Below the pieces are notes generated by a model, which did no database searches, was not told where the DNA came from, and saw only the letters and a list, made by a program, of their open reading frames with translations. A program made the translations under genes and the position numbers. A stretch of 64,000 nt of DNA from Oscillospiraceae bacterium (GTDB taxonomy: Bacteria > Bacillota > Clostridia > Oscillospirales > SIG627): contig SVTV01000011.1 of the NCBI GenBank assembly GCA_015063605.1, forward strand, positions 1-64,000. Direction: 5' to 3'. How positions within the stretch are numbered: the first letter of the stretch is position 1; each line of letters starts with the position of its first letter. Positions 20,747 through 33,818 of this stretch are shown piece after piece.

Positions 20747-22195
20747 ATGGAAAATCTCCACTTTTTAAATTACAATGAGACAGGTGCAAACAGTTCGGAA
20801 ATAATAGAGGATTGCTTTGCCGACGGAATGTTCAATGAAAATTTTTATAAAATTCTTTTATCCTCTGCGGGAAAAAGAGAGATCCTTAAACGTCAAAGTG
20901 TTTTCAGAGAAGCGGAAAACGAAGAATGCCTTTTGAAGCTTAGAAATGTTTATGAAGGAAGCATCGGAGTAAAGACAGCGTTAAAATGGGTTGAGCGGGC
21001 AAAAGGGGATTTGGAAAAGCAATGTATGCATCTGAAATTTTTGGATAGCTTTCTCAAGTCCGCTCGGACGCTTGCCGAGTTTTCCCAAAGCTCATGCGAG
21101 CCACTAAGAGAGATAGGCACTTTCTGGGATAATGAACTTAAAAAATATCCGCAGCTTTCAGATGATGTGAAGCGTATATCGGAAGGAATGAAAGAGTTTT
21201 TGACGGTCAATTTGGTGGAAAATGATGAACTTTGGATAACTCCCGATTACGGCAGTGTGTTTTATGTGGATATATTGAAGGATTGTGCCGATGCTCTCGG
21301 AGTTGAATGTCAATTACCTTTCGGAAAAGGAAGCATCAGAAGCCCATATTCTGATTTCCTTTCTCTCTTCGGCGGAAAAAGCGAGGCTGTCAGAGAGACT
21401 TTGGATAAATACACTTTTCTTTTGAAGGACAGCTCCGCAGAGCTTTTGGTGTCTTACGGAAGTGAGATAGATTTTTACCTGACATTTATTGATTTTAAAG
21501 AAAACAAAGGAAGCGCTCTGCCACTTTGCTATCCCGAAATATCTCACGAAAAGAAATTTTATGCAAAGGATGCTGCAGATATATCCCTTGTAGTTCAGAA
21601 CATACCGAAAATTGTGACTAACGATATATATATCGATGAAAGCGAACCGTTTTTCTTCATAGTAGGTGCCAACGGCGGAGGAAAGACATCCTATATTCGT
21701 GCTGTGGGAATAAATCTTCTTTTGTTTTTGGCGGGTTGTCCCATATTCGCAAGAGAAGCGCAAATATATCCGTTTGATAATGTGTTTACGCATTTTCCGA
21801 GAAACGAAAAGGAAGAAACCAAGGGCAGACTCAACGAGGAAACAGTCCGCATACAAAACTTATATGACGGCATGGGAAGAAATTCCGTCATTCTTCTTAA
21901 CGAGACTTTCTCTTCCGTGAGCGAGGAAAACGGTACGGAGCTTTCGTTGGATGCGGCGGAGAAAATACGTAATTCCGGCTGTTTCGGACTTTTTGTAACC
22001 CACTACAGAGATGTATGCTTCTCGGAATATCCCTATTTATCGGCGGAAATACAGAAAGGGAATGATAATAACGGCAGAACATTCAAAATAGTCAGAGAAA
22101 ATCGTGATCCGGAAGCGTATATCAATGATATATTGAGAAGATATCGTCTTGATGAAGAATCCTTGAATGTGAGAATTGCGGCGGAGGTAGAGTAA
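20747..22195 (+). CDS. MutS-core ATPase paralog 1 (MutS domains III-V only; no mismatch-binding, connector or Smr domains)
   Basis: MutS domain V Walker A FFFIVGANGGGKTSYIRAVGINLLLFLAGCPIFA (cf. MutS ITGPNMGGKSTYMRQ...AQIGSFVPA); MutS Walker B/signature region LLNETFSSVSEENGTELSLDAAEKIRNSGCFGLFVTHY. Confidence 0.7.
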   Translation: MENLHFLNYNETGANSSEIIEDCFADGMFNENFYKILLSSAGKREILKRQSVFREAENEECLLKLRNVYEGSIGVKTALKWVERAKGDLEKQCMHLKFLDSFLKSARTLAEFSQSSCEPLREIGTFWDNELKKYPQLSDDVKRISEGMKEFLTVNLVENDELWITPDYGSVFYVDILKDCADALGVECQLPFGKGSIRSPYSDFLSLFGGKSEAVRETLDKYTFLLKDSSAELLVSYGSEIDFYLTFIDFKENKGSALPLCYPEISHEKKFYAKDAADISLVVQNIPKIVTNDIYIDESEPFFFIVGANGGGKTSYIRAVGINLLLFLAGCPIFAREAQIYPFDNVFTHFPRNEKEETKGRLNEETVRIQNLYDGMGRNSVILLNETFSSVSEENGTELSLDAAEKIRNSGCFGLFVTHYRDVCFSEYPYLSAEIQKGNDNNGRTFKIVRENRDPEAYINDILRRYRLDEESLNVRIAAEVE

Positions 22196-23646
22196 TGGAA
22201 TTGAGCTTGATGAATCTTGCGGGAAACGAAGCGCCGAAATCTTGTATGACATTGTGTGATGCAACGAAAAGCGATATTTTGTTTTACAGATTTTTTGAAG
22301 CGCTGTCATGTGTCAACGGCAGAAAAGTAAGCGAACGTGAAGTGTTTTCCGATGCTTTGCGTAAATTGATGACACATCCTCTTTGTACAAAAGAAGAGAT
22401 AGTATACAGACAGGATGTTATTTGCGACTTTATTTCCGACAGAGCACTTTGGGACGGGTTTTATTCCTGCTTTTACCATTTGAATGAATGCAGAGAAGAG
22501 CTCAATGTAAAACTGAAAGAAAATATGGGAGCTTACAGAAACGCTTCAAATGCTATATTCAATGCATGCGGATATCTCAGAAGTGTAAGCTTTATATTGA
22601 AAAGAATACTTCTTATCATGAAAAGGCTTAAAAACGTTCTGGATAGCGGAAATTACAGGAGTGAAGGCTTGAAGCGTTTGCACGAATACGTTATTCCTTT
22701 TGATGACGGGAATGAAAAGCTCAAAGAACTTATTTCTGTTTGCGGAAGATTTGAAATGTTTACTTCCGAAGAAGAACGTGACCTACGCTTGGAGTTTGAC
22801 GATCAGGGATGCATACAAAAATTCGGACTTATAAACGAAAAATACGTAAAATTTACCGATCCCCGTTTGAAAGAGAAGAAGAGCTTTTTCAGGAAAAACA
22901 GCATCGGTGAAGTGTATCCTTCTGTGCGGGTTTCTCTTAACGAAGAAAAAGGCTGTGATGTAAAAGCAGTATCGGATATTTCCGATATGATGCAGGATAT
23001 ATCAAGAAGCATATTTGAATCCGTGGGAACTGTTTGCGACGAGAGAGATGTTTTTAAAGCAGTGCTGTTTTTGTATGATCTTCTTTCGGGTAAAAATATT
23101 CCCCTTTGCTTCCCGGAAGTCAACGAAGGCGAGTGTATATTGTACGAAAATCTTTACGACCCTTTTTTATCTCTTGACGGCGGTATAGAAGTGAAGCCGA
23201 GAACTTTTGCTTTTTCACGCAAAAAGGGGCTTATAGTTTGCGGAGATAACGGAAGCGGAAAGACATTTTTGCTCCGTTCTCTCGGAATGGCTCAGGTCAT
23301 GGCACAAAGCGGATTGTTTGTTACGGCGGAAAATGCCTGTATTAACCTGACAGAATGTGTGAAGACCATCTTTGCCGGCAAAGAAAACGAGAGAGTTAAA
23401 ACGGCAAATAAAGGCAGATTCGAACAGGAAGTCAAGCTCCTTTCCGATGCCGCAAGTGAGGATTCTCCGAGATCGCTTTTGCTTATAAATGAGATATTCC
23501 AATCTACGGATTATAAATTGGCTTCGAAAGCGATGGTTCCTATTTTGGGATTTTTGGCAAAAAAGGGGAACTGCTGTGCTATGGCTACACACCTTGATGA
23601 ACTGAAAATAAATTCCGCTTTTGATAATATAGAATTAAGGAGTTGA
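22195..23646 (+). CDS. MutS-core ATPase paralog 2 (domains III-V only)
   Basis: LIVCGDNGSGKTFLLRSLGMAQVMAQSGLFVTA Walker A; LLINEIFQSTDYKLASKAMVPILGFLAKKGNCCAMATHLDEL; lever-like region EEIVYRQDVICDFISD; TAATG start overlap with paralog 1. Confidence 0.7.
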   Translation: MELSLMNLAGNEAPKSCMTLCDATKSDILFYRFFEALSCVNGRKVSEREVFSDALRKLMTHPLCTKEEIVYRQDVICDFISDRALWDGFYSCFYHLNECREELNVKLKENMGAYRNASNAIFNACGYLRSVSFILKRILLIMKRLKNVLDSGNYRSEGLKRLHEYVIPFDDGNEKLKELISVCGRFEMFTSEEERDLRLEFDDQGCIQKFGLINEKYVKFTDPRLKEKKSFFRKNSIGEVYPSVRVSLNEEKGCDVKAVSDISDMMQDISRSIFESVGTVCDERDVFKAVLFLYDLLSGKNIPLCFPEVNEGECILYENLYDPFLSLDGGIEVKPRTFAFSRKKGLIVCGDNGSGKTFLLRSLGMAQVMAQSGLFVTAENACINLTECVKTIFAGKENERVKTANKGRFEQEVKLLSDAASEDSPRSLLLINEIFQSTDYKLASKAMVPILGFLAKKGNCCAMATHLDELKINSAFDNIELRS

Positions 23647-23652
23647 ATTATT

Positions 23653-24273
23653 ATGTCGAAAATACCAAATGATTTAAAACGTTTTTCTGTCAAGTGTGTA
23701 TTGAAAAGAGTAATTCCGTGCATTCTCGGAGAAATAGTATTGGGGATAATACTTTTTCTTTGGGGCGACAGAATATTTATGACGGATATTACTGAATTTA
23801 AGATAAGCTGTTATATCGTTGTTATGTGCATTCCTTTCGTGCTGACCGGTGTTCCGTTCAAACTTTTTGACCGAACCTTTTTCGGTAAGGTAAATAAAGT
23901 CAAGGTTGAAAGCGAACTGACTTCAACGGGAGTAAGTGCAGTCGAAATGAGAGGCTCGAAGGTTACCTTTTATGCAATACTTCAAATTACAGATGAGAAT
24001 GGAAATATATTCGACCGTAAGGTGAAGCTTGATAATTTGGATTCTGAGAGAAACAAAGATATTTTCGGAAAAAAATTAAGCGGAAATGGTGTAGACGTCA
24101 GCTTCAAAGCCGGGGACAGAGTGTTTCACTTGTTTGGAACAAACAATTTAGTTGTTTTACCCGAAGCGTCGGATACTACTGTTAAATGTGCGGTTTGCGG
24201 TCGTATCAATCCCGTGGAAAATAACGAATGCAGTAAATGCGGGCATACTTTGGTTAAAGAATTGCCGTTGTGA
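23653..24273 (+). CDS. Two-TM membrane protein with C-terminal CxxC-x12-CxxC zinc ribbon
   Basis: TM helices IPCILGEIVLGIILFLWG and YIVVMCIPFVLTGVPF; C-terminal KCAVCGRINPVENNECSKCGHTL; 7 bp downstream of MutS paralog 2. Confidence 0.55.
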   Translation: MSKIPNDLKRFSVKCVLKRVIPCILGEIVLGIILFLWGDRIFMTDITEFKISCYIVVMCIPFVLTGVPFKLFDRTFFGKVNKVKVESELTSTGVSAVEMRGSKVTFYAILQITDENGNIFDRKVKLDNLDSERNKDIFGKKLSGNGVDVSFKAGDRVFHLFGTNNLVVLPEASDTTVKCAVCGRINPVENNECSKCGHTLVKELPL

Positions 24274-24297: not shown

Positions 24298-24420
24298 GAT
24301 TTTGTCGAAGGTTTCGATGAAAAAACGTCGAAGGTTTCGATAAAATTGTGTCAAAAACGTCGAAGGGTTCGACAAAATTGCGTCGAAAGCTTCGATAAAA
24401 TTGTGTCGAAGGTTTCGATA
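24298..24420. repeat. Array of five palindromic sites GTCGAAGGTTTCGA(T/C) (TCGAA-N3-TTCGA) with A-rich spacers, period about 23 bp
   Basis: Copies begin at about 24301, 24324, 24356, 24379, 24402; candidate operator array for a dimeric DNA-binding protein. Confidence 0.8.
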
Positions 24421-24489
24421 TTTCCCGGAATGCTTTGAATCGGTTAAATTTATTTACAACCCCGTTACAAAAAGTTTACAATTTTTCTG

Positions 24490-24518
24490 TTGACAAAAAC
24501 AAGTCCGTATGATACTAT
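24490..24518 (+). promoter_or_regulatory. Sigma70-like promoter TTGACA-17-TACTAT
   Basis: ttgacaaaaacaagtccgtatgatactat upstream of structured leader. Confidence 0.55.
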
Positions 24519-24567
24519 ATAGATGTAAGCTCAAATGCACTTTTGAGTTTTGGATCGGCATCATTTA

Positions 24568-24652
24568 CGAGATATTATCGCGCAAAGAGGTCAGGGTATA
24601 AGCAGAGAGAAAGTATCTCGTTTATGCAGTGTCTCTTTGCGCATTTTTGTAT
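24568..24652 (+). promoter_or_regulatory. Structured 5-prime leader with intrinsic-terminator-like hairpin immediately upstream of RBS (candidate riboswitch/attenuator)
   Basis: ATCGCGCAAAGAG (24577-24589) pairs with CTCTTTGCGCAT (24633-24644) followed by TTTTTGTATT; RBS GAAAGGGG lies downstream of the T-run; additional pairing CGAGATA / TATCTCG. Confidence 0.45.
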
Positions 24653-24669
24653 TATGAAAGGGGATTATT

Positions 24670-25401
24670 ATGAAAGATGACCTTAAACAGTTTTTAAAGA
24701 ATTTTTTGAAAAAGCTTCTTATATTCCTTGCCGTTGCAGGCGGCATAGTGCTTTTCTTTGTGATCTTTTATGCCATATTCCCAAGCGACGGAGGAAAAGG
24801 TGGCTGGGGATTTAAAAAGCCATCGGGGGGAGAAGCAATTTTAGCCAAGCCCGTTATATACCTCTATCCCGAAGAAACCACAGACGTAAAGGTTGAGCTT
24901 GATATAAGCGGAGAGCTTTACTGTACATATCCGAAGTATGAAGACGGTTGGGAAGTAACGGCGTACCCCGACGGTACTCTTGAAGATAAGAAGGACGGGA
25001 ATGAGTATTCATATCTCTTCTGGGATGCATACAGCGATATCGACTTCGATCTTTCCCGTGGATTTGTTGTAAAGGGAGAAGATACGGCGGAGTTTTTACG
25101 TGATACTTTAAGTAAAATGGGACTTTTGCCGAAGGAATACAATGAATTTATAGTATATTGGCTTCCCTTAATGGAGAAAAACGATTATAATTTTATTACG
25201 TTCCAGAAAGAAGCGTATACGGATAATGCAAAGCTTGATATAACGCCCGCACCCGACAGTATTCTTCGTGTTTACATGGTTTATACTGCCGTTGATGAAG
25301 ATGACGTTAAGAAATACGAGGGAATTGAAGCTCCCAAAATAAAAGGCTTTGAGCGTAAAGGCTTTACGGTAGTTGAATGGGGCGGTTCCGAAATTAAGTA
25401 A
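24670..25401 (+). CDS. N-terminally membrane-anchored extracytoplasmic protein, unknown function
   Basis: Single TM LLIFLAVAGGIVLFFVIFYAIF then Gly-rich linker and soluble domain. Confidence 0.5.
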   Translation: MKDDLKQFLKNFLKKLLIFLAVAGGIVLFFVIFYAIFPSDGGKGGWGFKKPSGGEAILAKPVIYLYPEETTDVKVELDISGELYCTYPKYEDGWEVTAYPDGTLEDKKDGNEYSYLFWDAYSDIDFDLSRGFVVKGEDTAEFLRDTLSKMGLLPKEYNEFIVYWLPLMEKNDYNFITFQKEAYTDNAKLDITPAPDSILRVYMVYTAVDEDDVKKYEGIEAPKIKGFERKGFTVVEWGGSEIK

Positions 25402-25424
25402 TACTGTTTGCAAGGAAGGATCAT

Positions 25425-26921
25425 ATGTATAAGGTGCGGTCATCGTCGGAAGCCGAAACGCTTTTTGAAAAAAGAAAAAACGATATATTGAATGCGGCGG
25501 ATGAAATAAGCTTTTCGGGGGACTCATATTATGTGTCTGCGGAGGGAAGCGACGACAATGACGGAATGTCGCCCTCGTCACCGTGGAAGACACTTTCCAA
25601 GGTGTCGGAATCAAAGCTTTCAAGGGGTGATGCGGTACGCTTTCGCCGCGGAGATGTGTTCCGCGGATATGTTCGTACTTGCCCCGGTGTCACATATTGT
25701 GCCTACGGAGAGGGCGAAAAGCCGAAGCTTTACGGCTGGGATAAAGATCTGTCGGGTAAGGGAATGTGGACTCTTTACGATAAGGAGAACATGATATGGA
25801 AGCTTAATGACGCTATCCTCGATTGCGGAACTCTCGTGTTCGATCACGGAGCATTGCACAGCAGAAAGCTCATACCGTCATATATAAACGGAAAGTATGT
25901 TTGCAGAGATGATGAAAGCAAGGATTTTCACATGGAAAATGAAATGACGGAGGACCTTGATATTTTCTGCCGTTACACGGAAAGAATGACGGAATCTCCG
26001 TCAAAGGGCGAAAGCTTTCCCGTTCCCGTCATAGATGAAAAAAGCTTCGGTGAGCTTTACCTGAGATGCGATAAAGGCGATCCTTCCGAGGTCTTTTCTT
26101 CCATAGAAGCATTGCCGAAGAGGAACATGATATATGTGGGCGGTAATGAAAACGTGACTGTTGATAATCTTTGTCTGAAGTATATCGGCGCTCATGCCAT
26201 AGGTGCGGGCGGTGTATCTGTTAAGGGGCTTACGGTAAGAAACTGCGAGATAGGCTGGATAGGAGGCTCCGTTCAGCATTATCTCGGAACAGACCCCAAT
26301 TATCCCCAAGGCGGCAGAGGTACTGTGACAAGGTACGGAAACGGCGTTGAGATATACGGCGGGTGCGACGGTTACACGGTGGAGAATTGTTATATATATC
26401 AATGCTATGATGCCGCAATAACTCATCAGGTGACTACCGACAAAACAAGATTTGAAATGAAGAATATACGCTATCGCGGTAATATTGTGGAGAATTGCGT
26501 TTATTCCGTTGAATATTTTCTCGAGAAGCTTAATGGCGAAAGGGATAGCTTTATCGGTGATTGCGTTATTGAGGAAAATATTCTTCGTCTTTGCGGTTAC
26601 GGTTGGGGACAGCAGCGCCACAACAAAGAGACCCCTGCCCATATAAAGGGCTGGGATTACGAGAATACCGCCGAAGGATCTGTTATCCGCAATAATATTT
26701 TTGACCGCTCCGCTTACCGTATGGTGCATATTACCGCAAAAAGCGCGGAAAGTCTTCCCGATATATATGATAACGTATATATTCAGACCGATGGCATGAG
26801 TCTCGGACGTTTCGGTTCTCATGATATCGGTGCTTGGGAGTTTGCTTTCGATCGTGACGGAATAAAACGCTTTTCAAAGCTTACGGGCGAAACGGAAGGA
26901 AATTTTATTATAAGGGTATAG
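25425..26921 (+). CDS. Right-handed parallel beta-helix repeat protein (pectate-lyase-fold; polysaccharide lyase/hydrolase-like)
   Basis: Repeats such as VRNCEIGWIGGS, GNGVEIYGGCDGYTVENCYIYQCYDAAITHQ, NCVYSVEYF typical of PbH1 beta-helix; no obvious signal peptide. Confidence 0.5.
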   Translation: MYKVRSSSEAETLFEKRKNDILNAADEISFSGDSYYVSAEGSDDNDGMSPSSPWKTLSKVSESKLSRGDAVRFRRGDVFRGYVRTCPGVTYCAYGEGEKPKLYGWDKDLSGKGMWTLYDKENMIWKLNDAILDCGTLVFDHGALHSRKLIPSYINGKYVCRDDESKDFHMENEMTEDLDIFCRYTERMTESPSKGESFPVPVIDEKSFGELYLRCDKGDPSEVFSSIEALPKRNMIYVGGNENVTVDNLCLKYIGAHAIGAGGVSVKGLTVRNCEIGWIGGSVQHYLGTDPNYPQGGRGTVTRYGNGVEIYGGCDGYTVENCYIYQCYDAAITHQVTTDKTRFEMKNIRYRGNIVENCVYSVEYFLEKLNGERDSFIGDCVIEENILRLCGYGWGQQRHNKETPAHIKGWDYENTAEGSVIRNNIFDRSAYRMVHITAKSAESLPDIYDNVYIQTDGMSLGRFGSHDIGAWEFAFDRDGIKRFSKLTGETEGNFIIRV

Positions 26922-26929
26922 GATCAATT

Positions 26930-27817
26930 ATGAAACACATAAAAAAAGCTTTTGGAATAATATCTCTTTTGTTGACCGCATTAATGGTATTTTTATCCTG
27001 CGCTCCTGCAGGTGCGCCCCTTTCGGGTACATCCGATATAGGGATAAGCTTAAACAATACGGCAACGGGAGAAAAACCGAGCCAAGCAGAGCCGATAGCT
27101 CCCGGAGAGGGCTGGCAGGTCACAGCCGAGACCTCTTTCAAGGTCAGTCTTATGAATAAAAGCGGAGAGGGAACAGGTATCGCAAGAGTAGCGGCTATAA
27201 CCTCTTCCGAGGGTGAGCATTCTATATATATTGATATTCTCGATGAAGATGGAAAGGTGCTTCACAGCTTAATGCAAAGGGGCAGAGGATTTGTGTTCGC
27301 TTTGGGAGAAGAACCCTCGGCGATCGCCGTTCTTACAACAAATGTTTTGAAGGATAAGAGACTTGCTTCTCAGATCATGTATTATTCTTTCGGAGATTCT
27401 GTGGTAAACAGAATAGCATCCGACGGAAGAATGGGTGTTTCCGATGAAAAAGCCGAGCCTGCGGGGATAGCTGTGCGGAGGATCAAAAACGGAAGCCGTC
27501 AAGGCGGCGGATGGGTATCTCTCGGAAATGCCAACGTTGCCGACAAGGCGGGAGTGGCGTTTTCTCAAAACAATTATGCTCATTATACTTCTCAGCTTCA
27601 GGAGCTGCTTTATAATGAAAGTAAAAACGGCAGTACGTATTTTTATACCTTACTTGATTCCTATACGGAAAAGGATACCGTTAAGGTATACACTCCCCAT
27701 GATAAGGTCATAGCTCTTGAACCCGGAAAGGATCATATTTCCGATCCTATGGAAAAGCACCTTTTTGATGATGAAATAGACGGAATTTACGAAAAATACC
27801 TTAACGGATGGTTCTGA
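26930..27817 (+). CDS. Lipoprotein, unknown function
   Basis: Signal peptide with lipobox LLTALMVFLSCAPAG. Confidence 0.5.
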   Translation: MKHIKKAFGIISLLLTALMVFLSCAPAGAPLSGTSDIGISLNNTATGEKPSQAEPIAPGEGWQVTAETSFKVSLMNKSGEGTGIARVAAITSSEGEHSIYIDILDEDGKVLHSLMQRGRGFVFALGEEPSAIAVLTTNVLKDKRLASQIMYYSFGDSVVNRIASDGRMGVSDEKAEPAGIAVRRIKNGSRQGGGWVSLGNANVADKAGVAFSQNNYAHYTSQLQELLYNESKNGSTYFYTLLDSYTEKDTVKVYTPHDKVIALEPGKDHISDPMEKHLFDDEIDGIYEKYLNGWF

Positions 27818-29431: not shown

Positions 29432-31114
29432 TCAAGCTTTTTCGGAAAATTGATTCTGCGTGTTCTTCGGGAATCTGACCGTTATTTTTGTGCCCTTGCC
29501 CACGGTGCTGTCAAGGCTTATCTTCGCATCGTGAAGCCGTGCGGCACGCTTGACTATAGACAAGCCGAGACCTGTGCCTCCCACCTGCTTTGAGTGGCTC
29601 TTATCTATTCTGTAAAAGCGTTCGAATATCCTTTCCTTGTATTCCGCAGGGATACCTATGCCCGTATCGGTCACGGTGAGGATCACGGTGTCTCCCGCAT
29701 TTCTCGTTTCGATACGCACACTTCCGTCGGGAACATTATATTTGATCGCATTTTCGCAGAGGTTATATATAATACACTCTATAAGATATGGAATTCCGTT
29801 TATAATGCAGGTTTCGCCTCCGAGAAAGAGAGTGATACCGAAGTGTTCTGCTTGGACCCTGAGGGAAGAGATTACGCCTGCCGAGATCTCGTGAATATCG
29901 GTTTCCGTTCTGTTTTTCTCTGCCGCACCCTCGTCAAGCATTGAAAGCTTGATTATATCGTTGACGAGGCTTATCATCCTCTTTGCCTCGGAATAGATCT
30001 GCCTTGAAAATTCGGGAACGTCTTCAGCTTTGACAAGACCGTTGGAAAGAAGCTCCGCGCATCCCGATATCGAATGGAGAGGCGTTTTTAATTCATGAGA
30101 AACATTGGCTGTGAATTCCCGTCTCATTTTTTCGGAGTTTACCTTTTCGGTTATATCAAAAACGATGATGACCGCACCGATATTTTCTCTGTCGGAAATG
30201 ACGGGACTTGCATTGAATTGGTATATGCGGTCGTTTTTCTCAATGAGTGTTTCCGAGTGAGCACCCGTCTTCGTTTTAGACAAAATATCGGAAAGATCGG
30301 CTTCGGTAACTGCTGCGGTAAGCTCAAGTCCTGTGCAGTATTTGCCCGTATTGAGTATTTCGGCGGCGGCACGGTTTATGCTTACGATACGATCCTTTTC
30401 ATTTGTTATGATAAGCCCCTCGGTCATTTTATCCGTTGCGGCGTTGAATTCATCACGTCTGCGTCTCAATTCCTCCGATTGTCCCGCCAGCTGATTCTGC
30501 TGGCTTTGTATTCTCTGCATCAACGGAAGAAGTTCCTTATATTCCACATTTGCCATGGGACGGTTAAGGTCAATCTCATTAAGAGGCTTGACAAGCTTTT
30601 TTGCAACGCCCGAAGCAAGAACGGCTGACAATATAAGCGCCGCTGCAATAACTACGGTAATGGGCTGAGCCATACTTAATATTATTGTAAGAAGTGTGAG
30701 CTGTGAATCGGCAAGACGGATAACGGAGCCGTCGGGAAGCTTTTTTGCGGAATATATCATATCCTGCATTATTTCTTCGGAAAATCGAGAGGATTCTCCG
30801 TATCCGTTTTCGATCGCTTCGCGTATTTCTTCCGCTTCAAGGGGGTCTGTGTTTTCCGCTGTTTTCCGGGAATCGAACAGTATAGTTCCGTCCCTGCTTA
30901 TCCATGTTATTCTGTTGTCGTTTGTTGAGAGTCCGTCGAAGTATGCCATACCCTCATTAGCTACCGCCTGGCTTGCAAGAAGAGTCTGGGTTTTGAGCTG
31001 ATCCTTCTGCATTTTAAAGAGATAATCGTAAAGTATTCCTATGGTTATGGCGATAGAGGCAAGGAGAACAGTGACGGCGACGAGCAGTATCGATCTGAAG
31101 ATCTTGTTTGTCAT
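29432..31114 (-). CDS. Sensor histidine kinase, PhoR-like (TM - PAS - HisKA - HATPase)
   Basis: H-box VSHELKTPLHSI, N/G boxes (NLCENAIKYN, DTGIGIP, GGTGLGLSIVK); start set to ATG 31114 (MTNKIF) giving 4-bp overlap with upstream RR. Confidence 0.8.
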   Translation of the reverse strand: MTNKIFRSILLVAVTVLLASIAITIGILYDYLFKMQKDQLKTQTLLASQAVANEGMAYFDGLSTNDNRITWISRDGTILFDSRKTAENTDPLEAEEIREAIENGYGESSRFSEEIMQDMIYSAKKLPDGSVIRLADSQLTLLTIILSMAQPITVVIAAALILSAVLASGVAKKLVKPLNEIDLNRPMANVEYKELLPLMQRIQSQQNQLAGQSEELRRRRDEFNAATDKMTEGLIITNEKDRIVSINRAAAEILNTGKYCTGLELTAAVTEADLSDILSKTKTGAHSETLIEKNDRIYQFNASPVISDRENIGAVIIVFDITEKVNSEKMRREFTANVSHELKTPLHSISGCAELLSNGLVKAEDVPEFSRQIYSEAKRMISLVNDIIKLSMLDEGAAEKNRTETDIHEISAGVISSLRVQAEHFGITLFLGGETCIINGIPYLIECIIYNLCENAIKYNVPDGSVRIETRNAGDTVILTVTDTGIGIPAEYKERIFERFYRIDKSHSKQVGGTGLGLSIVKRAARLHDAKISLDSTVGKGTKITVRFPKNTQNQFSEKA

Positions 31115-31118
31115 ATTG

Positions 31119-31808
31119 TTACCCTTTATGTTTTTTATCGGGAGCGACAAGCTTGTATCCCACACCTCGGACAGTTTCGATATGATCCTTGGCGCTTCCC
31201 AGCTTATCACGAAGCGTTCCTATATGTACATCGACAGTTCTCGTTTCCCCCGAGAAATCCGTTCCCCATACGAAGGAAAGAAGCTGATCTCGTGTAAATA
31301 CTCGCTGAGGATTGGAAGCCAGAATACGAAGCAGCTCGAATTCTTTCAAGGTAAGCTGTAACGCTTCGCCGCATACGCTTGCGGTGTGCTTTTCGGTGTC
31401 TATGAATATATTTCCTGCGTTTACCGTATTGTCTTTTTTCTTTGTTCCCGTTCTTCTTAAGACAGCCTTGACACGGGAGACCATTTCCATCATTCCGAAG
31501 GGCTTAGCGAGATAATCGTCTGCACCTGCATCAAGTCCCGTTACCTTGTCGTATTCCGTGGATCTTGCGGTTGCCATTATAATGGGTACATCGGCGGTCT
31601 TGGGATCTGAGCGGAGGCGCTTCAGAATAGATGTTCCGTCTTCGCCGGGAAGCATTATGTCAAGTAGTATAAGCTCGGGTATTTCCGACAAAAGAGCAGC
31701 GGAAAGCTCTTTTCCGTCATTCAGTCCCCTGGCTTCAAATCCCGATGCCTTCAGGGTGTATATCATCATGTTTCGTATTCCGCTGTCGTCTTCAACACAG
31801 TAGATCAT
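31119..31808 (-). CDS. OmpR/PhoB-family response regulator
   Basis: Receiver domain with phospho-acceptor D (ILLDIMLPGEDG) and winged-helix C-terminus (TVDVHIGTLRDKL). Confidence 0.85.
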   Translation of the reverse strand: MIYCVEDDSGIRNMMIYTLKASGFEARGLNDGKELSAALLSEIPELILLDIMLPGEDGTSILKRLRSDPKTADVPIIMATARSTEYDKVTGLDAGADDYLAKPFGMMEMVSRVKAVLRRTGTKKKDNTVNAGNIFIDTEKHTASVCGEALQLTLKEFELLRILASNPQRVFTRDQLLSFVWGTDFSGETRTVDVHIGTLRDKLGSAKDHIETVRGVGYKLVAPDKKHKG

Positions 31809-31974
31809 TTGTTTCTCCTATGTATTGTATTTATTCGTAAACGGTTTTTATGTGCCTATGCCGGCACCGTACCCCAATATTATACACCATATTTTTATTA
31901 ATGTCACCGATTTTTAAGAAAAAGCAGAGAAATTTGTTCTCTGCTTTTAGAATTGTGTTTATAAAGCGATGCGG

Positions 31975-33720
31975 TCAGTTAAGAGAATACTTTCTCGCAT
32001 AGCTTTCGTATTTTGTTTTGAAATCGGAGCTTGTGTTTCTGACCTCACGGAGATACTCGTGAAGGTCGAGCTTTTTGTGCGCCATATCAAGTATGCATCC
32101 CGCTATGTTGGAGCAATGATCTGCCGTGCGCTCGAAGTCCGCAAGAAGATCGGACCATACAAAGCCTGCTTCAATGGTGCAGTAGCCCTTCTGCATACGC
32201 AGAATATGGTTAGCTCTGAGATTTTCCTTGAGACCGTCTATTACCTGCTCAAGAGGCTCTACTAAAGTTGCCGATTCAAGGTCGTCATGAAGAAAGGCGT
32301 TGAGGGAGAGGCTGAGGATCTCATCAACAGCCGCTGAGATAACGGATATCTCTCTGAGTGCCTGCTCTGTAAAGTTCAGCTTCTTTTCCTTCATTTCCTC
32401 TACAGCCTCAAGAATGTTGACTCCGTGGTCTGATATTCTTTCGAAGTCGCCTATCATTCTGAGAAGCATTGCGGCTTCGGAACTGTTTTCTTCGCTCAAT
32501 TGCTGTGTGCTGAGATGAACAAGGTATGTTCCGAGAAGGTCCTCATATTTATCGGATCTTTCTTCGCCATCGCGGATCTTTGCTGCAAGCTCGGGATTGT
32601 AGGAGCCTATTGCTTTGAGGCTTTCCTTCAAGGTTTCAACGGAAAGCTTTGCCATTTCCAATGTGGTGTGGCGGCTCTGCTCAAGAGCGATGGCGGGAGT
32701 CGCGAAAAGTCTTTCGTCAAGCTCAACGACCTTTTCGGGAGCTTTTCCTTCGGGAACAAGAACGAAAGCAAGCTTTTCAAGAAGCGATGTCATGGGGAGA
32801 AGAAGTGCCGTGCAAGCTATATTGAAAAGAGAATGAGCAACGGCGATACCGGCATGATCTGCCGCCTGTGAGAAGAGAAGAGGAGAGAATACCGCATCGA
32901 TGATACAGAATGCGGAAAGCCATACGATAGTACCTATAACGTTAAAGGAAAGATGGACAAGCGCCGCACGCTTTGCGTTTTTGTTAGTTCCGAAGGAGGA
33001 GAGGAGCGCTGTTATACATGTACCGATATTTTGTCCCATTATGATGGGAACAGCGGCGCCGTAGGAGATCTGACCCGTTACGGTGAGAGCCTGAAGAATA
33101 CCGACGGAGGCGGAGCTTGATTGAATGACTGCCGTAAGAACAGCACCTGCAAGCATTCCGAGAATGGGATTTTCAAATGCCACGAAGAGCTCTCTGAATG
33201 CGGGAATGTCCTTGAGCCCCGAAACGGATGCGGACATCGTGTCCATTCCGTACATCAATGTAGCAAAGCCCAGAAGGATCGTTCCGGTGTCTTTCTTTGT
33301 ACTGCTCTTTGTGAACATCAAAAACGCCGTTCCGATGAGAGCCAATACGGGGGTAAAGGATGTGGGCTTAAGAAGGGAAAGGATTATATTGTCGCTTTCG
33401 ATTCCGCCCAAGGAAAGTATCCATGCGGTGACCGTCGTACCGACGTTTGCACCCATGATAACGTTTATCGACTGTCCCAGCGACATGATACCGGAGTTTA
33501 CAAATCCGACTACCATGACGGTGGTGGCAGATGAGCTTTGTATTATTGCCGTAACGCCGAGACCCATAAGGAAGCCCGCCATTTTCTTCGTCGTAAGCTT
33601 ACTTAATATGGTTCGCAGTCCGTTTCCTGCGCGTCTTTCCAACGCCTGACCCATCAGTGTCATTCCGAACAGGAAAAGACAAAGACCGCCTATAAGGTTT
33701 AAAATGTCAAAAATATCCAT
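31975..33720 (-). CDS. Na+/phosphate cotransporter family protein with C-terminal PhoU-like repeats
   Basis: MDIFDILNLIGGLCLFLFGMTLMGQALE is a typical NptA/YjbB N-terminus; C-terminal PhoU-like helical repeats; start chosen at ATG 33720 behind AAGAAAGG SD (ORF track begins at TTG 33765). Confidence 0.75.
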   Translation of the reverse strand: MDIFDILNLIGGLCLFLFGMTLMGQALERRAGNGLRTILSKLTTKKMAGFLMGLGVTAIIQSSSATTVMVVGFVNSGIMSLGQSINVIMGANVGTTVTAWILSLGGIESDNIILSLLKPTSFTPVLALIGTAFLMFTKSSTKKDTGTILLGFATLMYGMDTMSASVSGLKDIPAFRELFVAFENPILGMLAGAVLTAVIQSSSASVGILQALTVTGQISYGAAVPIIMGQNIGTCITALLSSFGTNKNAKRAALVHLSFNVIGTIVWLSAFCIIDAVFSPLLFSQAADHAGIAVAHSLFNIACTALLLPMTSLLEKLAFVLVPEGKAPEKVVELDERLFATPAIALEQSRHTTLEMAKLSVETLKESLKAIGSYNPELAAKIRDGEERSDKYEDLLGTYLVHLSTQQLSEENSSEAAMLLRMIGDFERISDHGVNILEAVEEMKEKKLNFTEQALREISVISAAVDEILSLSLNAFLHDDLESATLVEPLEQVIDGLKENLRANHILRMQKGYCTIEAGFVWSDLLADFERTADHCSNIAGCILDMAHKKLDLHEYLREVRNTSSDFKTKYESYARKYSLN

Positions 33721-33818
33721 AAAATGCCTTTCTTTTTGCGTATATCCCATACGCATTACTTTCAAAATCTTATTCTACAGCTATATGATACAATAAATAC
33801 ATCAAGAAAAATGCGGTG

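What the first reader, a model, noticed from the sequence alone, without database searches (positions are those of the whole stretch)
24490..24669. Promoter followed by structured leader whose terminator hairpin sits directly upstream of the RBS (riboswitch/attenuator candidate)
A TTGACA-17-TACTAT promoter is followed by an about 150-nt leader. In it, ATCGCGCAAAGAG (24577-24589) pairs with CTCTTTGCGCAT (24633-24644) and is followed by a U-run. The Shine-Dalgarno GAAAGGGG for the 24670 gene lies downstream of that U-run. Additional complementary segments (CGAGATA/TATCTCG and CTCAAA/TTTGAG) allow alternative folds. This is the classic geometry of a transcription-attenuation switch controlling the three-gene operon of a membrane protein, a beta-helix protein and a lipoprotein.
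Basis: seen in the sequence. Interest (0 to 1): 0.5.

Follow-up and report, generated by a model that had tools for sequence, protein, structure and literature searches.

The report
Conserved terminator leader before envelope operon
A strong promoter is followed by a roughly 125-nt structured RNA leader that ends in a transcription terminator just before the first gene of a small envelope-protein operon; it is real and is conserved in one distant relative, so it is probably an attenuator, but it matches no known riboswitch and nothing yet shows that it switches.

Summary
An extended-10 promoter (TTGACA-17-TGaTACTAT, 24490-24518) precedes a 5' hairpin (24527-24550). A 63-nt imperfect hairpin (24580-24642) follows, then UUUUU (24644-24648), the SD GAAAGGGG (24656-24663) and ATG 24670. 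The leader folds far better than shuffles (z -5.6).

The same architecture sits upstream of the only distant true orthologue found (L081, 63% aa identity). There the core 24564-24649 is the best-conserved stretch of the whole alignment. Four-fold degenerate sites are near saturation (43% identical), and the 5' hairpin keeps its structure but not its sequence.

A conserved upstream block (TTTACGAGATATT) can pair with the 3' strand of the upper terminator stem. It is nearly isoenergetic with that stem before the terminator base is transcribed.

No Rfam family matches either leader. Pairs vary on one side only (mostly C to U giving G.U), never on both. A closer relative (L211, 82% aa) lacks the leader. 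None of 79 genome loci of the wider protein family has it.

Best reading: a lineage-restricted, unclassified transcription-attenuator leader with an unknown effector. The riboswitch label is not supported; a constitutive leaky terminator or a small RNA remain live rivals. Interest is modest.

The parts
24490..24495 (+). -35 hexamer TTGACA
   Evidence: Identical in L081.
24510..24518 (+). Extended -10, TGaTACTAT. The predicted TSS is about 24523-24525.
   Evidence: L081 has TGgTAAAAT after an 18-nt spacer. L080 and L210 have TATTAT. The TSS is inferred from the spacing.
24527..24550 (+). 5'-terminal hairpin A: a 9-bp stem (AAGCUCAAA / UUUGAGUUU) with hexaloop UGCACU
   Evidence: L081 has a 10-bp hairpin with a 6-nt loop at the same place but an unrelated sequence. 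A likely 5' stabiliser; this is inference.
24564..24576 (+). Conserved block 1, TTTACGAGATATT: the 5' arm of the alternative (candidate antiterminator) helix
   Evidence: 13/13 identical in L081. Pairs with 24612-24621 (I3, 39, 59).
24580..24642 (+). Long terminator hairpin. Lower stem 24580-24593 / 24630-24642, G+C-rich at its base. Purine-rich internal loop. Upper stem 24596-24608 / 24616-24627. Apical loop 24609-24615.
   Evidence: -32.0 kcal/mol; the L081 equivalent is -25.5. Both strands are sequence-conserved in L081. Variants C24581U, C24640U and C24642U (L081) all give G.U.
24609..24626 (+). 3' arm of the alternative helix (core UAUCUCGU 24614-24621). It is shared with the 3' strand of the upper terminator stem.
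   Evidence: I3. This helix is the MFE when the transcript ends at 24621. In L081 it stays the MFE until the terminator's 3' strand appears.
24644..24648 (+). U-tract: 5 U here, 6 in L210, 7 in L081
24656..24672 (+). SD GAAAGGGG (24656-24663) and the ATG at 24670; unpaired in the MFE fold
24670..27817 (+). Downstream operon. Gene 1: N-terminally anchored protein of a very large uncharacterised family (24670-25401). Gene 2: beta-helix protein (25425-26921). Gene 3: lipoprotein (26930-27817).
   Evidence: L081 has gene 1 plus the lipoprotein but no beta-helix gene.

Best explanation
This is a lineage-restricted, unclassified cis-acting leader RNA that attenuates transcription of the envelope-protein operon.

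1. A sigma-70-type extended -10 promoter fires at about 24524.
2. A 5'-terminal hairpin forms first and probably stabilises the transcript.
3. The polymerase then makes a 63-nt hairpin whose G+C-rich base is followed directly by a U-tract, 8 nt before the SD. By default most transcripts should therefore end near 24648 as a roughly 125-nt RNA, and the operon is off or low.
4. Read-through would need the conserved block 24564-24576 to capture the segment 24612-24621. That removes the upper half of the hairpin.
5. The captured helix also crosses the lower-stem helix topologically, with a linker of only 0-5 nt.
6. An unknown effector (protein, small molecule or other factor) would tip this balance.
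7. The SD is free in either state, so control would be transcriptional.

Shown here: the sequence features, the fold statistics, conservation in one distant orthologue, and the near-isoenergetic competition before the terminator's 3' strand is made.

Inferred: the TSS, actual termination, the existence of a switch, and any effector.
For: - The promoter, hairpin, U-tract and SD are at the stated coordinates.
- Leader fold z = -5.6 in the window and -3.9 in L081.
- L081 is the only distant relative sharing gene 1's N-terminal anchor and the rare lipoprotein. It has the same order: TTGACA, extended -10, 5' hairpin, block 1, long hairpin, U7, RBS.
- Against L081, the core 24564-24649 is 83% identical, with perfect runs of 13, 13, 17 and 11 nt. 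CDS nucleotide identity is 69% and four-fold sites are 43% identical.
- The bin 24610-24639 (28/30) is the best conserved of the whole alignment. The flanks are at 43-53%.
- Hairpin A is conserved as structure only.
- All four single-sided changes seen in terminator pairs keep a G.U pair.
- Duplex energies: alternative helix -14.4 / -15.1 kcal/mol, upper stem -12.0 / -10.1 kcal/mol (window / L081).
- The alternative helix is the MFE, or tied for it, until the 3' strand of the base is transcribed. After that the terminator wins by 18 (window) or 8.6 (L081) kcal/mol.
- The orientation is specific: there is no T-run on the minus strand.
Against: - There are only two independent lineages and no pair changed on both sides, so no structure is proven by covariation.
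- The alternative helix does not overlap the 11-13-bp base of the terminator. An H-type pseudoknot containing both helices is sterically conceivable, so capture of 24612-24621 may not prevent termination.
- No candidate regulator gene is conserved next to both loci.
- L211 (82% aa identity in gene 1) has no leader at all, so the operon works without it.
- The near-identity of the leader in close relatives carries no weight. Those strains are 96-100% identical over most of the locus.
- Segmental transfer of the core between lineages cannot be strictly excluded.
Confidence: 0.5

Rival explanations
1. Constitutive leader with no switch. The 5' hairpin stabilises the mRNA and the long hairpin plus U-tract is a fixed, leaky terminator (or a processing/stability element). 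It merely sets a low basal level of operon expression. Regulation, if any, acts at the promoter, for example through the TTACA boxes upstream.
For: - The terminator is far more stable than any alternative: -46 against -27.7 kcal/mol in the window, -46.9 against -38.3 in L081.
- The alternative helix leaves the terminator base free.
- There is no aptamer-like conserved domain outside the hairpin.
- Three TTACA repeats at 11-bp spacing abut the -35, and a PhoR/PhoB-like system lies nearby.
- L211 does without the leader.
Against: - A plain terminator or stabiliser needs structure, not sequence. Hairpin A shows that structure-only drift happens at this divergence.
- Both strands of the long hairpin and the unpaired block 1 are nevertheless frozen in sequence. 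That points to extra constraints such as alternative partners or a binding factor.
Confidence: 0.25
2. An independent small RNA gene. The promoter and terminator delimit a roughly 125-nt trans-acting sRNA. Its conserved single-stranded stretch UUUACGAGAUAUU is a seed for pairing with other mRNAs. The operon is expressed by terminator read-through or is only a neighbour.
For: - It has its own strong promoter and a strong terminator.
- A 13-nt perfectly conserved segment is unpaired or only weakly paired in the MFE of both lineages.
- A 5' hairpin and a 3' terminator hairpin are a typical sRNA layout (general knowledge).
Against: - In both lineages the element sits directly upstream of, and co-oriented with, the same orthologous gene. 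The upstream neighbours differ.
- No other promoter lies between the U-tract and the SD (8 nt apart), so the operon depends on read-through.
- No complementary target was found in the 64-kb window beyond chance-level matches; this is a weak test.
Confidence: 0.12
3. A new metabolite- or ion-sensing riboswitch class. The conserved core (24564-24645) folds into a pseudoknotted aptamer: helix ACGAGAUA/UAUCUCGU interleaved with GCGCAAAGAGG/UCUCUUUGCGC. Ligand occupancy decides whether the long terminator hairpin forms.
For: - Interleaved A-B-A'-B' complementarity with every block sequence-conserved in L081.
- The sequence is frozen on both strands.
- The two folds compete nearly isoenergetically during transcription.
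Against: - No Rfam match.
- Only two lineages are known, whereas riboswitch classes are usually widespread.
- The CM built from the two leaders finds nothing in 79 genome loci of the gene family, in 80 viral loci, or elsewhere in the window.
- There is no covariation.
- The regulated genes give no hint of a ligand.
Confidence: 0.1
4. DNA-level operator. The inverted repeats ACGAGATA...TATCTCGT and GCGCAAAGAG...CTCTTTGCGC are binding sites for a repressor that blocks elongation or initiation from +40 to +120.
For: Conserved inverted repeats.
Against: - The half-sites are 39-43 bp apart and interleaved, which is atypical for operators.
- The repeats are followed by a strand-specific T-run.
- The RNA fold is highly significant.
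- The observed changes are C to U, which keep G.U pairs. That matters for RNA, not DNA.
Confidence: 0.03

Closest known systems
Intrinsic-terminator attenuators / terminator-antiterminator leaders of Firmicutes (the expression-platform logic of riboswitches, and of PyrR-, LicT/SacY- and T-box-type leaders)
   Same: - Promoter, then a leader ending in a G+C-based hairpin plus U-tract immediately upstream of the RBS.
- An upstream conserved segment can pair with one strand of the terminator hairpin.
- The SD is left free, so control would be transcriptional.
   Different: - No sensor domain is recognisable.
- No match to Rfam's models of T-box, PyrR or any riboswitch.
- The alternative helix competes only with the upper stem, not with the terminator base.
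- Known from two lineages only.
Small H-type pseudoknot riboswitches whose aptamer overlaps the expression platform (preQ1-I, SAM-II, fluoride, guanidine-III)
   Same: - Compact conserved core of about 80 nt.
- Interleaved A-B-A'-B' complementary blocks.
- Conserved nucleotides on both strands.
   Different: - The stems here are much longer (8-12 and 11-13 bp), with a 23-nt insert.
- Helix B is itself the terminator base.
- No sequence or structure match in Rfam.
- The resemblance is topological only and the pseudoknot is untested.
5'-terminal stabilising stem-loops of Gram-positive mRNAs (e.g. the B. subtilis aprE leader and ermC; recalled from the literature)
   Same: Hairpin A starts about 3-5 nt from the predicted 5' end in both lineages. 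It is conserved in structure but not in sequence.
   Different: This explains only hairpin A, not the sequence-conserved core. The TSS has not been mapped.
Terminator-bounded 5'-UTR-derived sRNAs
   Same: The default product would be a roughly 125-nt RNA with a 5' hairpin, a conserved unpaired stretch and a terminator hairpin.
   Different: There is no evidence of trans targets. The element is syntenic with one gene in both lineages.

Membership tests
Intrinsic (Rho-independent) terminator | Stable hairpin with G+C-rich base pairs at its foot | tested here: met
   GCGC/GCGC at the base. Hairpin energy -32.0 kcal/mol (window) and -25.5 (L081). The simple scanner missed it only because its loop limit is 3-8 nt.
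Intrinsic (Rho-independent) terminator | U-tract directly 3' of the stem, on the transcribed strand only | tested here: met
   A + UUUUU at 24643-24648. U6 in L210 and U7 in L081. The complementary strand has no T-run.
Intrinsic (Rho-independent) terminator | Transcripts actually end there | not testable with these tools
   Needs Term-seq, 3'-RACE or in vitro transcription.
Known riboswitch or cis-regulatory RNA families (Rfam 15) | Match to a family covariance model | tested here: not met
   No hit at gathering score in the 64-kb window. No hit inside the leader at E <= 10 in the window or in L081.
Riboswitch (generic) | Conserved aptamer whose helices are supported by covariation | tested here: inconclusive
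   Only two independent lineages. 27 predicted pairs, none with changes on both sides. Four one-sided changes keep G.U, and one pair is broken in L081.
Riboswitch (generic) | Direct binding of a small ligand | not testable with these tools
   Needs in-line probing or ITC. The downstream genes are uncharacterised and suggest no ligand.
Terminator/antiterminator attenuator | Conserved alternative helix that shares a strand with the terminator and excludes it | tested here: inconclusive
   The helix 24562-24579 / 24609-24626 exists, is conserved in L081 and is energetically competitive before the 3' strand is made. It shares only the upper-stem strand. Exclusion of the base helix rests on topology, not on overlap.
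Leader-peptide (ribosome-mediated) attenuation | Conserved short ORF with an SD upstream of the terminator | tested here: not met
   Window: AUG-UAA and MHF*. L081: MQGAISPCI*. There is no SD and no conservation. The ORF starting at 24625 differs from L081 only by non-synonymous changes.
T-box leader | Specifier loop plus T-box sequence in a leader of about 200 nt or more | tested here: not met
   The leader is about 125 nt. No T-box hit in Rfam scans.
ANTAR-type two-hexaloop antiterminator target | Two tandem hairpins with hexaloops carrying A at position 1 and G at position 4, the second overlapping the terminator (criterion recalled from the literature) | tested here: not met
   Hairpin A's hexaloops are UGCACU (window) and CGAUCU (L081). 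There is no second hexaloop hairpin.
Trans-acting sRNA | Own promoter and terminator, a conserved unpaired seed, and identifiable targets | tested here: inconclusive
   The promoter, terminator and a conserved 13-nt stretch are present. No target could be assessed beyond the window.

The most novel reading that the evidence does not exclude
The conserved, interleaved core (24564-24645) is the aptamer of a new, very rare riboswitch, or the binding site of a new RNA-binding antiterminator. It would control an operon whose first gene belongs to a huge, completely uncharacterised family of Clostridia envelope proteins. That family has more than 7,700 homologues and no Pfam, NCBIfam or PDB relative. 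Identifying the effector would give the first functional handle on the family.
Probability: 0.12. Interest if true: 0.6.

Novelty: new member of a known kind. Interest (0 to 1): 0.33.

Why it matters
If the leader is a genuine conditional attenuator, it is an orphan regulatory RNA absent from Rfam. It sits in uncultured rumen/gut Oscillospiraceae. It controls an operon whose first gene belongs to a very large protein family with a confidently predicted fold, no annotation and no solved relative.

The effector would hint at what that family does. Even so, the element is known from only two lineages, its kind (terminator-based leader) is well known, and many such orphan leaders exist. Its general importance is therefore modest.

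Tried and rejected
1. Rfam at gathering score on the whole window, and at E <= 10 on both leaders: nothing in the leader. The weak hits fall in the upstream repeat array or the CDS and are eukaryotic snoRNA/miRNA models.
2. Genome scan with a profile of the gene-1 family: 79 loci, none with a related leader by blastn or by a covariance model built from the two leaders.
3. Metagenome pattern scan (GCAAAGAGG-N15-45-CTCGTTTATGCAG): a single hit inside a VirB4-like CDS, i.e. chance. That collection evidently lacks the JGI samples that hold the window and L081 sequences.
4. Viral-contig pattern scan: 114 hits, and none of the 80 returned loci is recognised by the model.
5. Plasmid and phage blastn in distant mode: no match.
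6. Look-ups of other full-length-like homologues (P0005, P0009, P0038, P0046): short or unrelated upstream regions.
7. Using the lipoprotein as an anchor: the family has only four members. The one extra locus is cut 62 nt upstream.
8. Purifying-selection argument from close relatives: withdrawn. Those strains are 96-100% identical outside hypervariable patches of gene 1, so an unchanged leader is uninformative.
9. K-turn, PyrR-box, TRAP-triplet and ANTAR readings of the internal and apical loops were checked by eye. The candidate nucleotides are not conserved in L081 or do not fit the consensus.
10. Leader peptide: no conserved ORF.
11. Block1:block2 mini-hairpin as antiterminator: only -1.2 / -1.9 kcal/mol.
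12. Function of gene 1: no Pfam, NCBIfam, PDB sequence or Foldseek-PDB match.

Full report
**1. What is in the sequence.**

- TTGACA lies at 24490-24495, followed by a 17-nt spacer and TACTAT at 24513-24518.
- TG at 24510-24511 makes this an extended -10 promoter (10/12 plus TG).
- A transcript starting near 24524 folds at once into a 9-bp hairpin with a hexaloop (24527-24550).
- After a 13-nt linker comes TTTACGAGATATT (24564-24576).
- A long imperfect hairpin spans 24580-24642. Its base is GCGCAAAGAGG / UCUCUUUGCGC and it is followed by A-UUUUU-G (24643-24649).
- GAAAGGGG (24656-24663) and ATG 24670 follow.

ViennaRNA gives -48.8 kcal/mol for 24520-24672. The z-score is -5.6 and none of 200 dinucleotide shuffles folds as well. 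The hairpin alone is -32 kcal/mol.

CTCAAA/TTTGAG is the separate 5' hairpin, not an alternative fold. CGAGATA/TATCTCG is real. It is the core of an 18-nt, 78%-complementary helix between 24562-24579 and 24609-26 (I3).

The downstream genes form a tight operon with gaps of 23 and 8 nt. They encode an N-terminally anchored protein, a beta-helix protein (weak PF13229 match) and a lipoprotein.

**2. Known families.**

Rfam 15 gives nothing at gathering score anywhere in the 64-kb window. It gives nothing inside the leader at E <= 10, either for the window or for the orthologous leader in L081.

T-box, PyrR, every riboswitch class and the 2017-era candidate motifs in Rfam are therefore excluded at this sensitivity.

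**3. Comparative evidence.**

The gene-1 family is huge:
- more than 7,700 proteins among the candidates scored;
- at least 590 hits in GTDB representative genomes.

Only one distant relative, P0004 (63% identity), shares the N-terminal anchor MK[DE][DE].KQF.K.FLKKLLI. Its contig (L081/L082) carries gene 1 followed by the orthologue of the lipoprotein, with no beta-helix gene. The lipoprotein family has only four members among 5.8 billion proteins.

Upstream of L081's gene 1 the architecture recurs:
- TTGACA, an 18-nt spacer and TGgTAAAAT;
- a 5' hairpin of unrelated sequence but the same size and position;
- four perfectly conserved runs: TTTACGAGATATT, TCGCGCAAAGAGG, GTATCTCGTTTATGCAG and GTCTCTTTGCG;
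- U7 and then the RBS.

Quantitatively, the core is 83% identical, against 69% for the CDS and 43% at four-fold degenerate sites. In 30-nt bins:

| Region | Identical positions |
|---|---|
| 24610-24639 (leader core) | 28/30, the best bin in the alignment |
| Best CDS bins | 26/30 |
| 24520-24549 (flank) | 13/30 |
| 24640-24669 (flank) | 17/32 |

This blocky pattern, with diverged loops and flanks, argues for constraint rather than recent transfer. It still rests on a single pair of lineages.

**4. A correction.**

I first took the unchanged leader in closer relatives (L080, L086) as strong purifying selection, because third-codon positions of gene 1 differ by 14-20%.

Identity profiles show this is wrong. 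L210, L080 and L086 are 96-100% identical to the window across the intergenic region, the beta-helix gene and the lipoprotein gene. Only patches within gene 1 (about 24756-25356) fall to 68-90%. The leader's identity there is what background divergence predicts.

The few variants are still worth listing:
- C24581U (L086), C24640U (L210) and C24642U (L081) each turn a G-C pair of the lower stem into G.U.
- A24598G (L081) turns an A-U pair of the upper stem into G.U.
- L210 adds a U to the U-tract.
- U24576C (L210) breaks a peripheral pair of the alternative helix.
- A24593-U24630 becomes A/A in L081.

No pair changes on both sides. The structure is compatible with the data but not proven.

**5. 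Distribution.**

The leader is absent from the following:
- L211, a relative with 82% aa identity in gene 1. Homology to the window starts about 10 nt before the ATG, and a divergent gene lies upstream.
- All 79 genome loci of the wider family and the extra look-ups, tested by blastn and by a covariance model built from the two leaders.
- The rest of the window.
- Plasmid and phage collections.
- Viral contigs.

A metagenome pattern scan returned only a chance hit in a CDS.

The element is therefore rare: ancestral to a small clade, and lost by rearrangement in at least one member.

**6. Mechanism.**

Folding of growing transcripts gives the following picture.
- When the RNA ends at 24621, the helix block 1 : 24612-24621 is the MFE.
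- In the window it is then roughly tied with the local upper stem (-26.1 against -25.9 kcal/mol at 24633).
- In L081 it remains the MFE until the 3' strand of the terminator base emerges.
- Duplex energies are -14.4 / -15.1 kcal/mol for the alternative helix and -12.0 / -10.1 for the upper stem (window / L081).
- Once the 3' strand is made, the full hairpin wins by 18 kcal/mol (window) or 8.6 (L081).

This is the energetic profile of a kinetically controlled terminator/antiterminator pair whose default is termination.

The weak point is that the alternative helix does not overlap the terminator base. It excludes the base only because the two helices cross, with a 0-5-nt linker. A pseudoknot holding a shortened version of both is conceivable.

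The frozen sequence of both hairpin strands and of block 1, beside a 5' hairpin that drifted freely, suggests extra constraints. These could be a three-way pairing (block 1 and the inner 5' strand both pair with UAUCUCG) and/or a bound factor.

No conserved leader peptide, K-turn, PyrR box, TRAP triplets or ANTAR hexaloops are present, judged by eye against L081. No regulator gene is conserved beside both loci.

**7. Verdict.**

| Reading | Probability |
|---|---|
| Conditional transcription attenuator, unknown effector | about 0.5 |
| Constitutive leaky terminator or stabilising leader | about 0.25 |
| Independent sRNA | about 0.12 |
| New riboswitch class | about 0.1 |
| DNA operator | about 0.03 |

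This is a new, unclassified member of a well-known kind of element, restricted to a rare clade. Interest is modest.

**8. Side observations.**

Directly upstream of the -35 are three (T/G)TTACA repeats at exact 11-bp spacing, 24453-24480. The exact match is unique in the window, and 0.18 matches are expected even when two mismatches are allowed.

[quoted passage not shown] The -35 TTGACA would be a fourth box, offset by 15 bp rather than 11.

A PnpS/PhoR-like kinase, a PhoB-like regulator and a NaPi-cotransporter/PhoU fusion lie 2-6 kb downstream. The same neighbours sit next to the lipoprotein paralogues in L095.

The operon may therefore be controlled by a response regulator at initiation, independently of the leader. 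The boxes are not conserved in L081.

Further upstream, at 24304-24419, are five copies of the palindrome GTCGAAGGTTTCGAT at 23-, 32-, 23- and 23-bp spacing. They are unique in the window and unexplained.

Noticed in passing
window 24304-24419: Five copies of a palindromic 15-mer, GTCGAAGGTTTCGAT (TCGAA-N3-TTCGA), at start-to-start spacings of 23, 32, 23 and 23 bp. They lie between the upstream gene's stop (24273) and the promoter. They are found nowhere else in the window (12 matches at up to 2 mismatches against 4.1 expected, 10 of them in this array). The array is identical in L087-L089, one base (24420) flanking it differs in L210, and it is absent in L081. Possibly an operator or iteron-like array; unexplained.
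   Followed up: partly
window 24453-24480 (and 29432-33765, minus strand): Three (T/G)TTACA direct repeats at exact 11-bp spacing abut the -35 TTGACA. They resemble Bacillus-type PHO boxes / OmpR-PhoB-family sites (PMC11870197). A PnpS/PhoR-like kinase, a PhoB-like regulator and a NaPi-cotransporter-PhoU fusion lie 2-6 kb downstream, and also next to the lipoprotein paralogues in L095. This suggests the operon could be phosphate- or response-regulator-controlled at initiation. The boxes are not conserved in L081.
   Followed up: partly
window 24670-25401: Gene 1 belongs to a very large Clostridia family: more than 7,700 homologues and at least 590 hits in representative genomes. It has about 70 invariant residues (KPVIYLYPE..., EYNEFIVYWLP..., VEWGG). 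It has no Pfam, NCBIfam or PDB sequence match. The AlphaFold model is confident (pLDDT 88) and has no Foldseek match in the PDB. This is an uncharacterised extracytoplasmic domain.
   Followed up: partly
window about 24756-25356, against L210, L080 and L086: Strains that are 96-100% identical over the rest of the locus differ by 10-32% in patches inside gene 1's ectodomain. The pattern is mosaic and hypervariable, suggesting recombination or diversifying selection on this surface protein.
   Followed up: partly
window 26930-27817; L081 4754-5680; L095 63-1991: The lipoprotein of the operon belongs to an extremely rare family. Only four members were found among 5.8 billion proteins: the window, L081, and two tandem paralogues in GCA_054293825.1.
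   Followed up: yes
L095 23-51: A terminator-like hairpin, GGTCTGAAAATGAATTTTCAGAC plus TTTTT, sits directly upstream of the RBS of the first lipoprotein paralogue. The contig ends 62 nt upstream of the gene, so it cannot be told whether this is an internal attenuator or the end of the preceding gene.
   Followed up: no
L211 1-146: In a relative with 82% aa identity, gene 1 has no leader and no obvious SD. A possible TTGAAT-17-TTTAAT promoter ends about 15 nt before the ATG, so the mRNA may be nearly leaderless.
   Followed up: partly
window 24650-24660 and 24666-24676: An exact 11-nt duplication, TATTATGAAAG, brackets the SD. It gives a second, out-of-frame AUG at 24654. It is not present in L081.
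   Followed up: no
window 20747-24273: Two adjacent, overlapping genes encode roughly 480-aa proteins that match only MutS domain V (ATPase). A 206-aa membrane protein with a C-terminal zinc ribbon follows. This is an unusual trio directly upstream of the finding; its function was not examined.
   Followed up: no
L090 / L091 1664-4900: In another branch of the gene-1 family, the homologue is flanked on both sides by Exo_endo_phos (PF03372) phosphoesterase genes and an LRR protein. This is a possible hint of a link to phosphoester scavenging.
   Followed up: no
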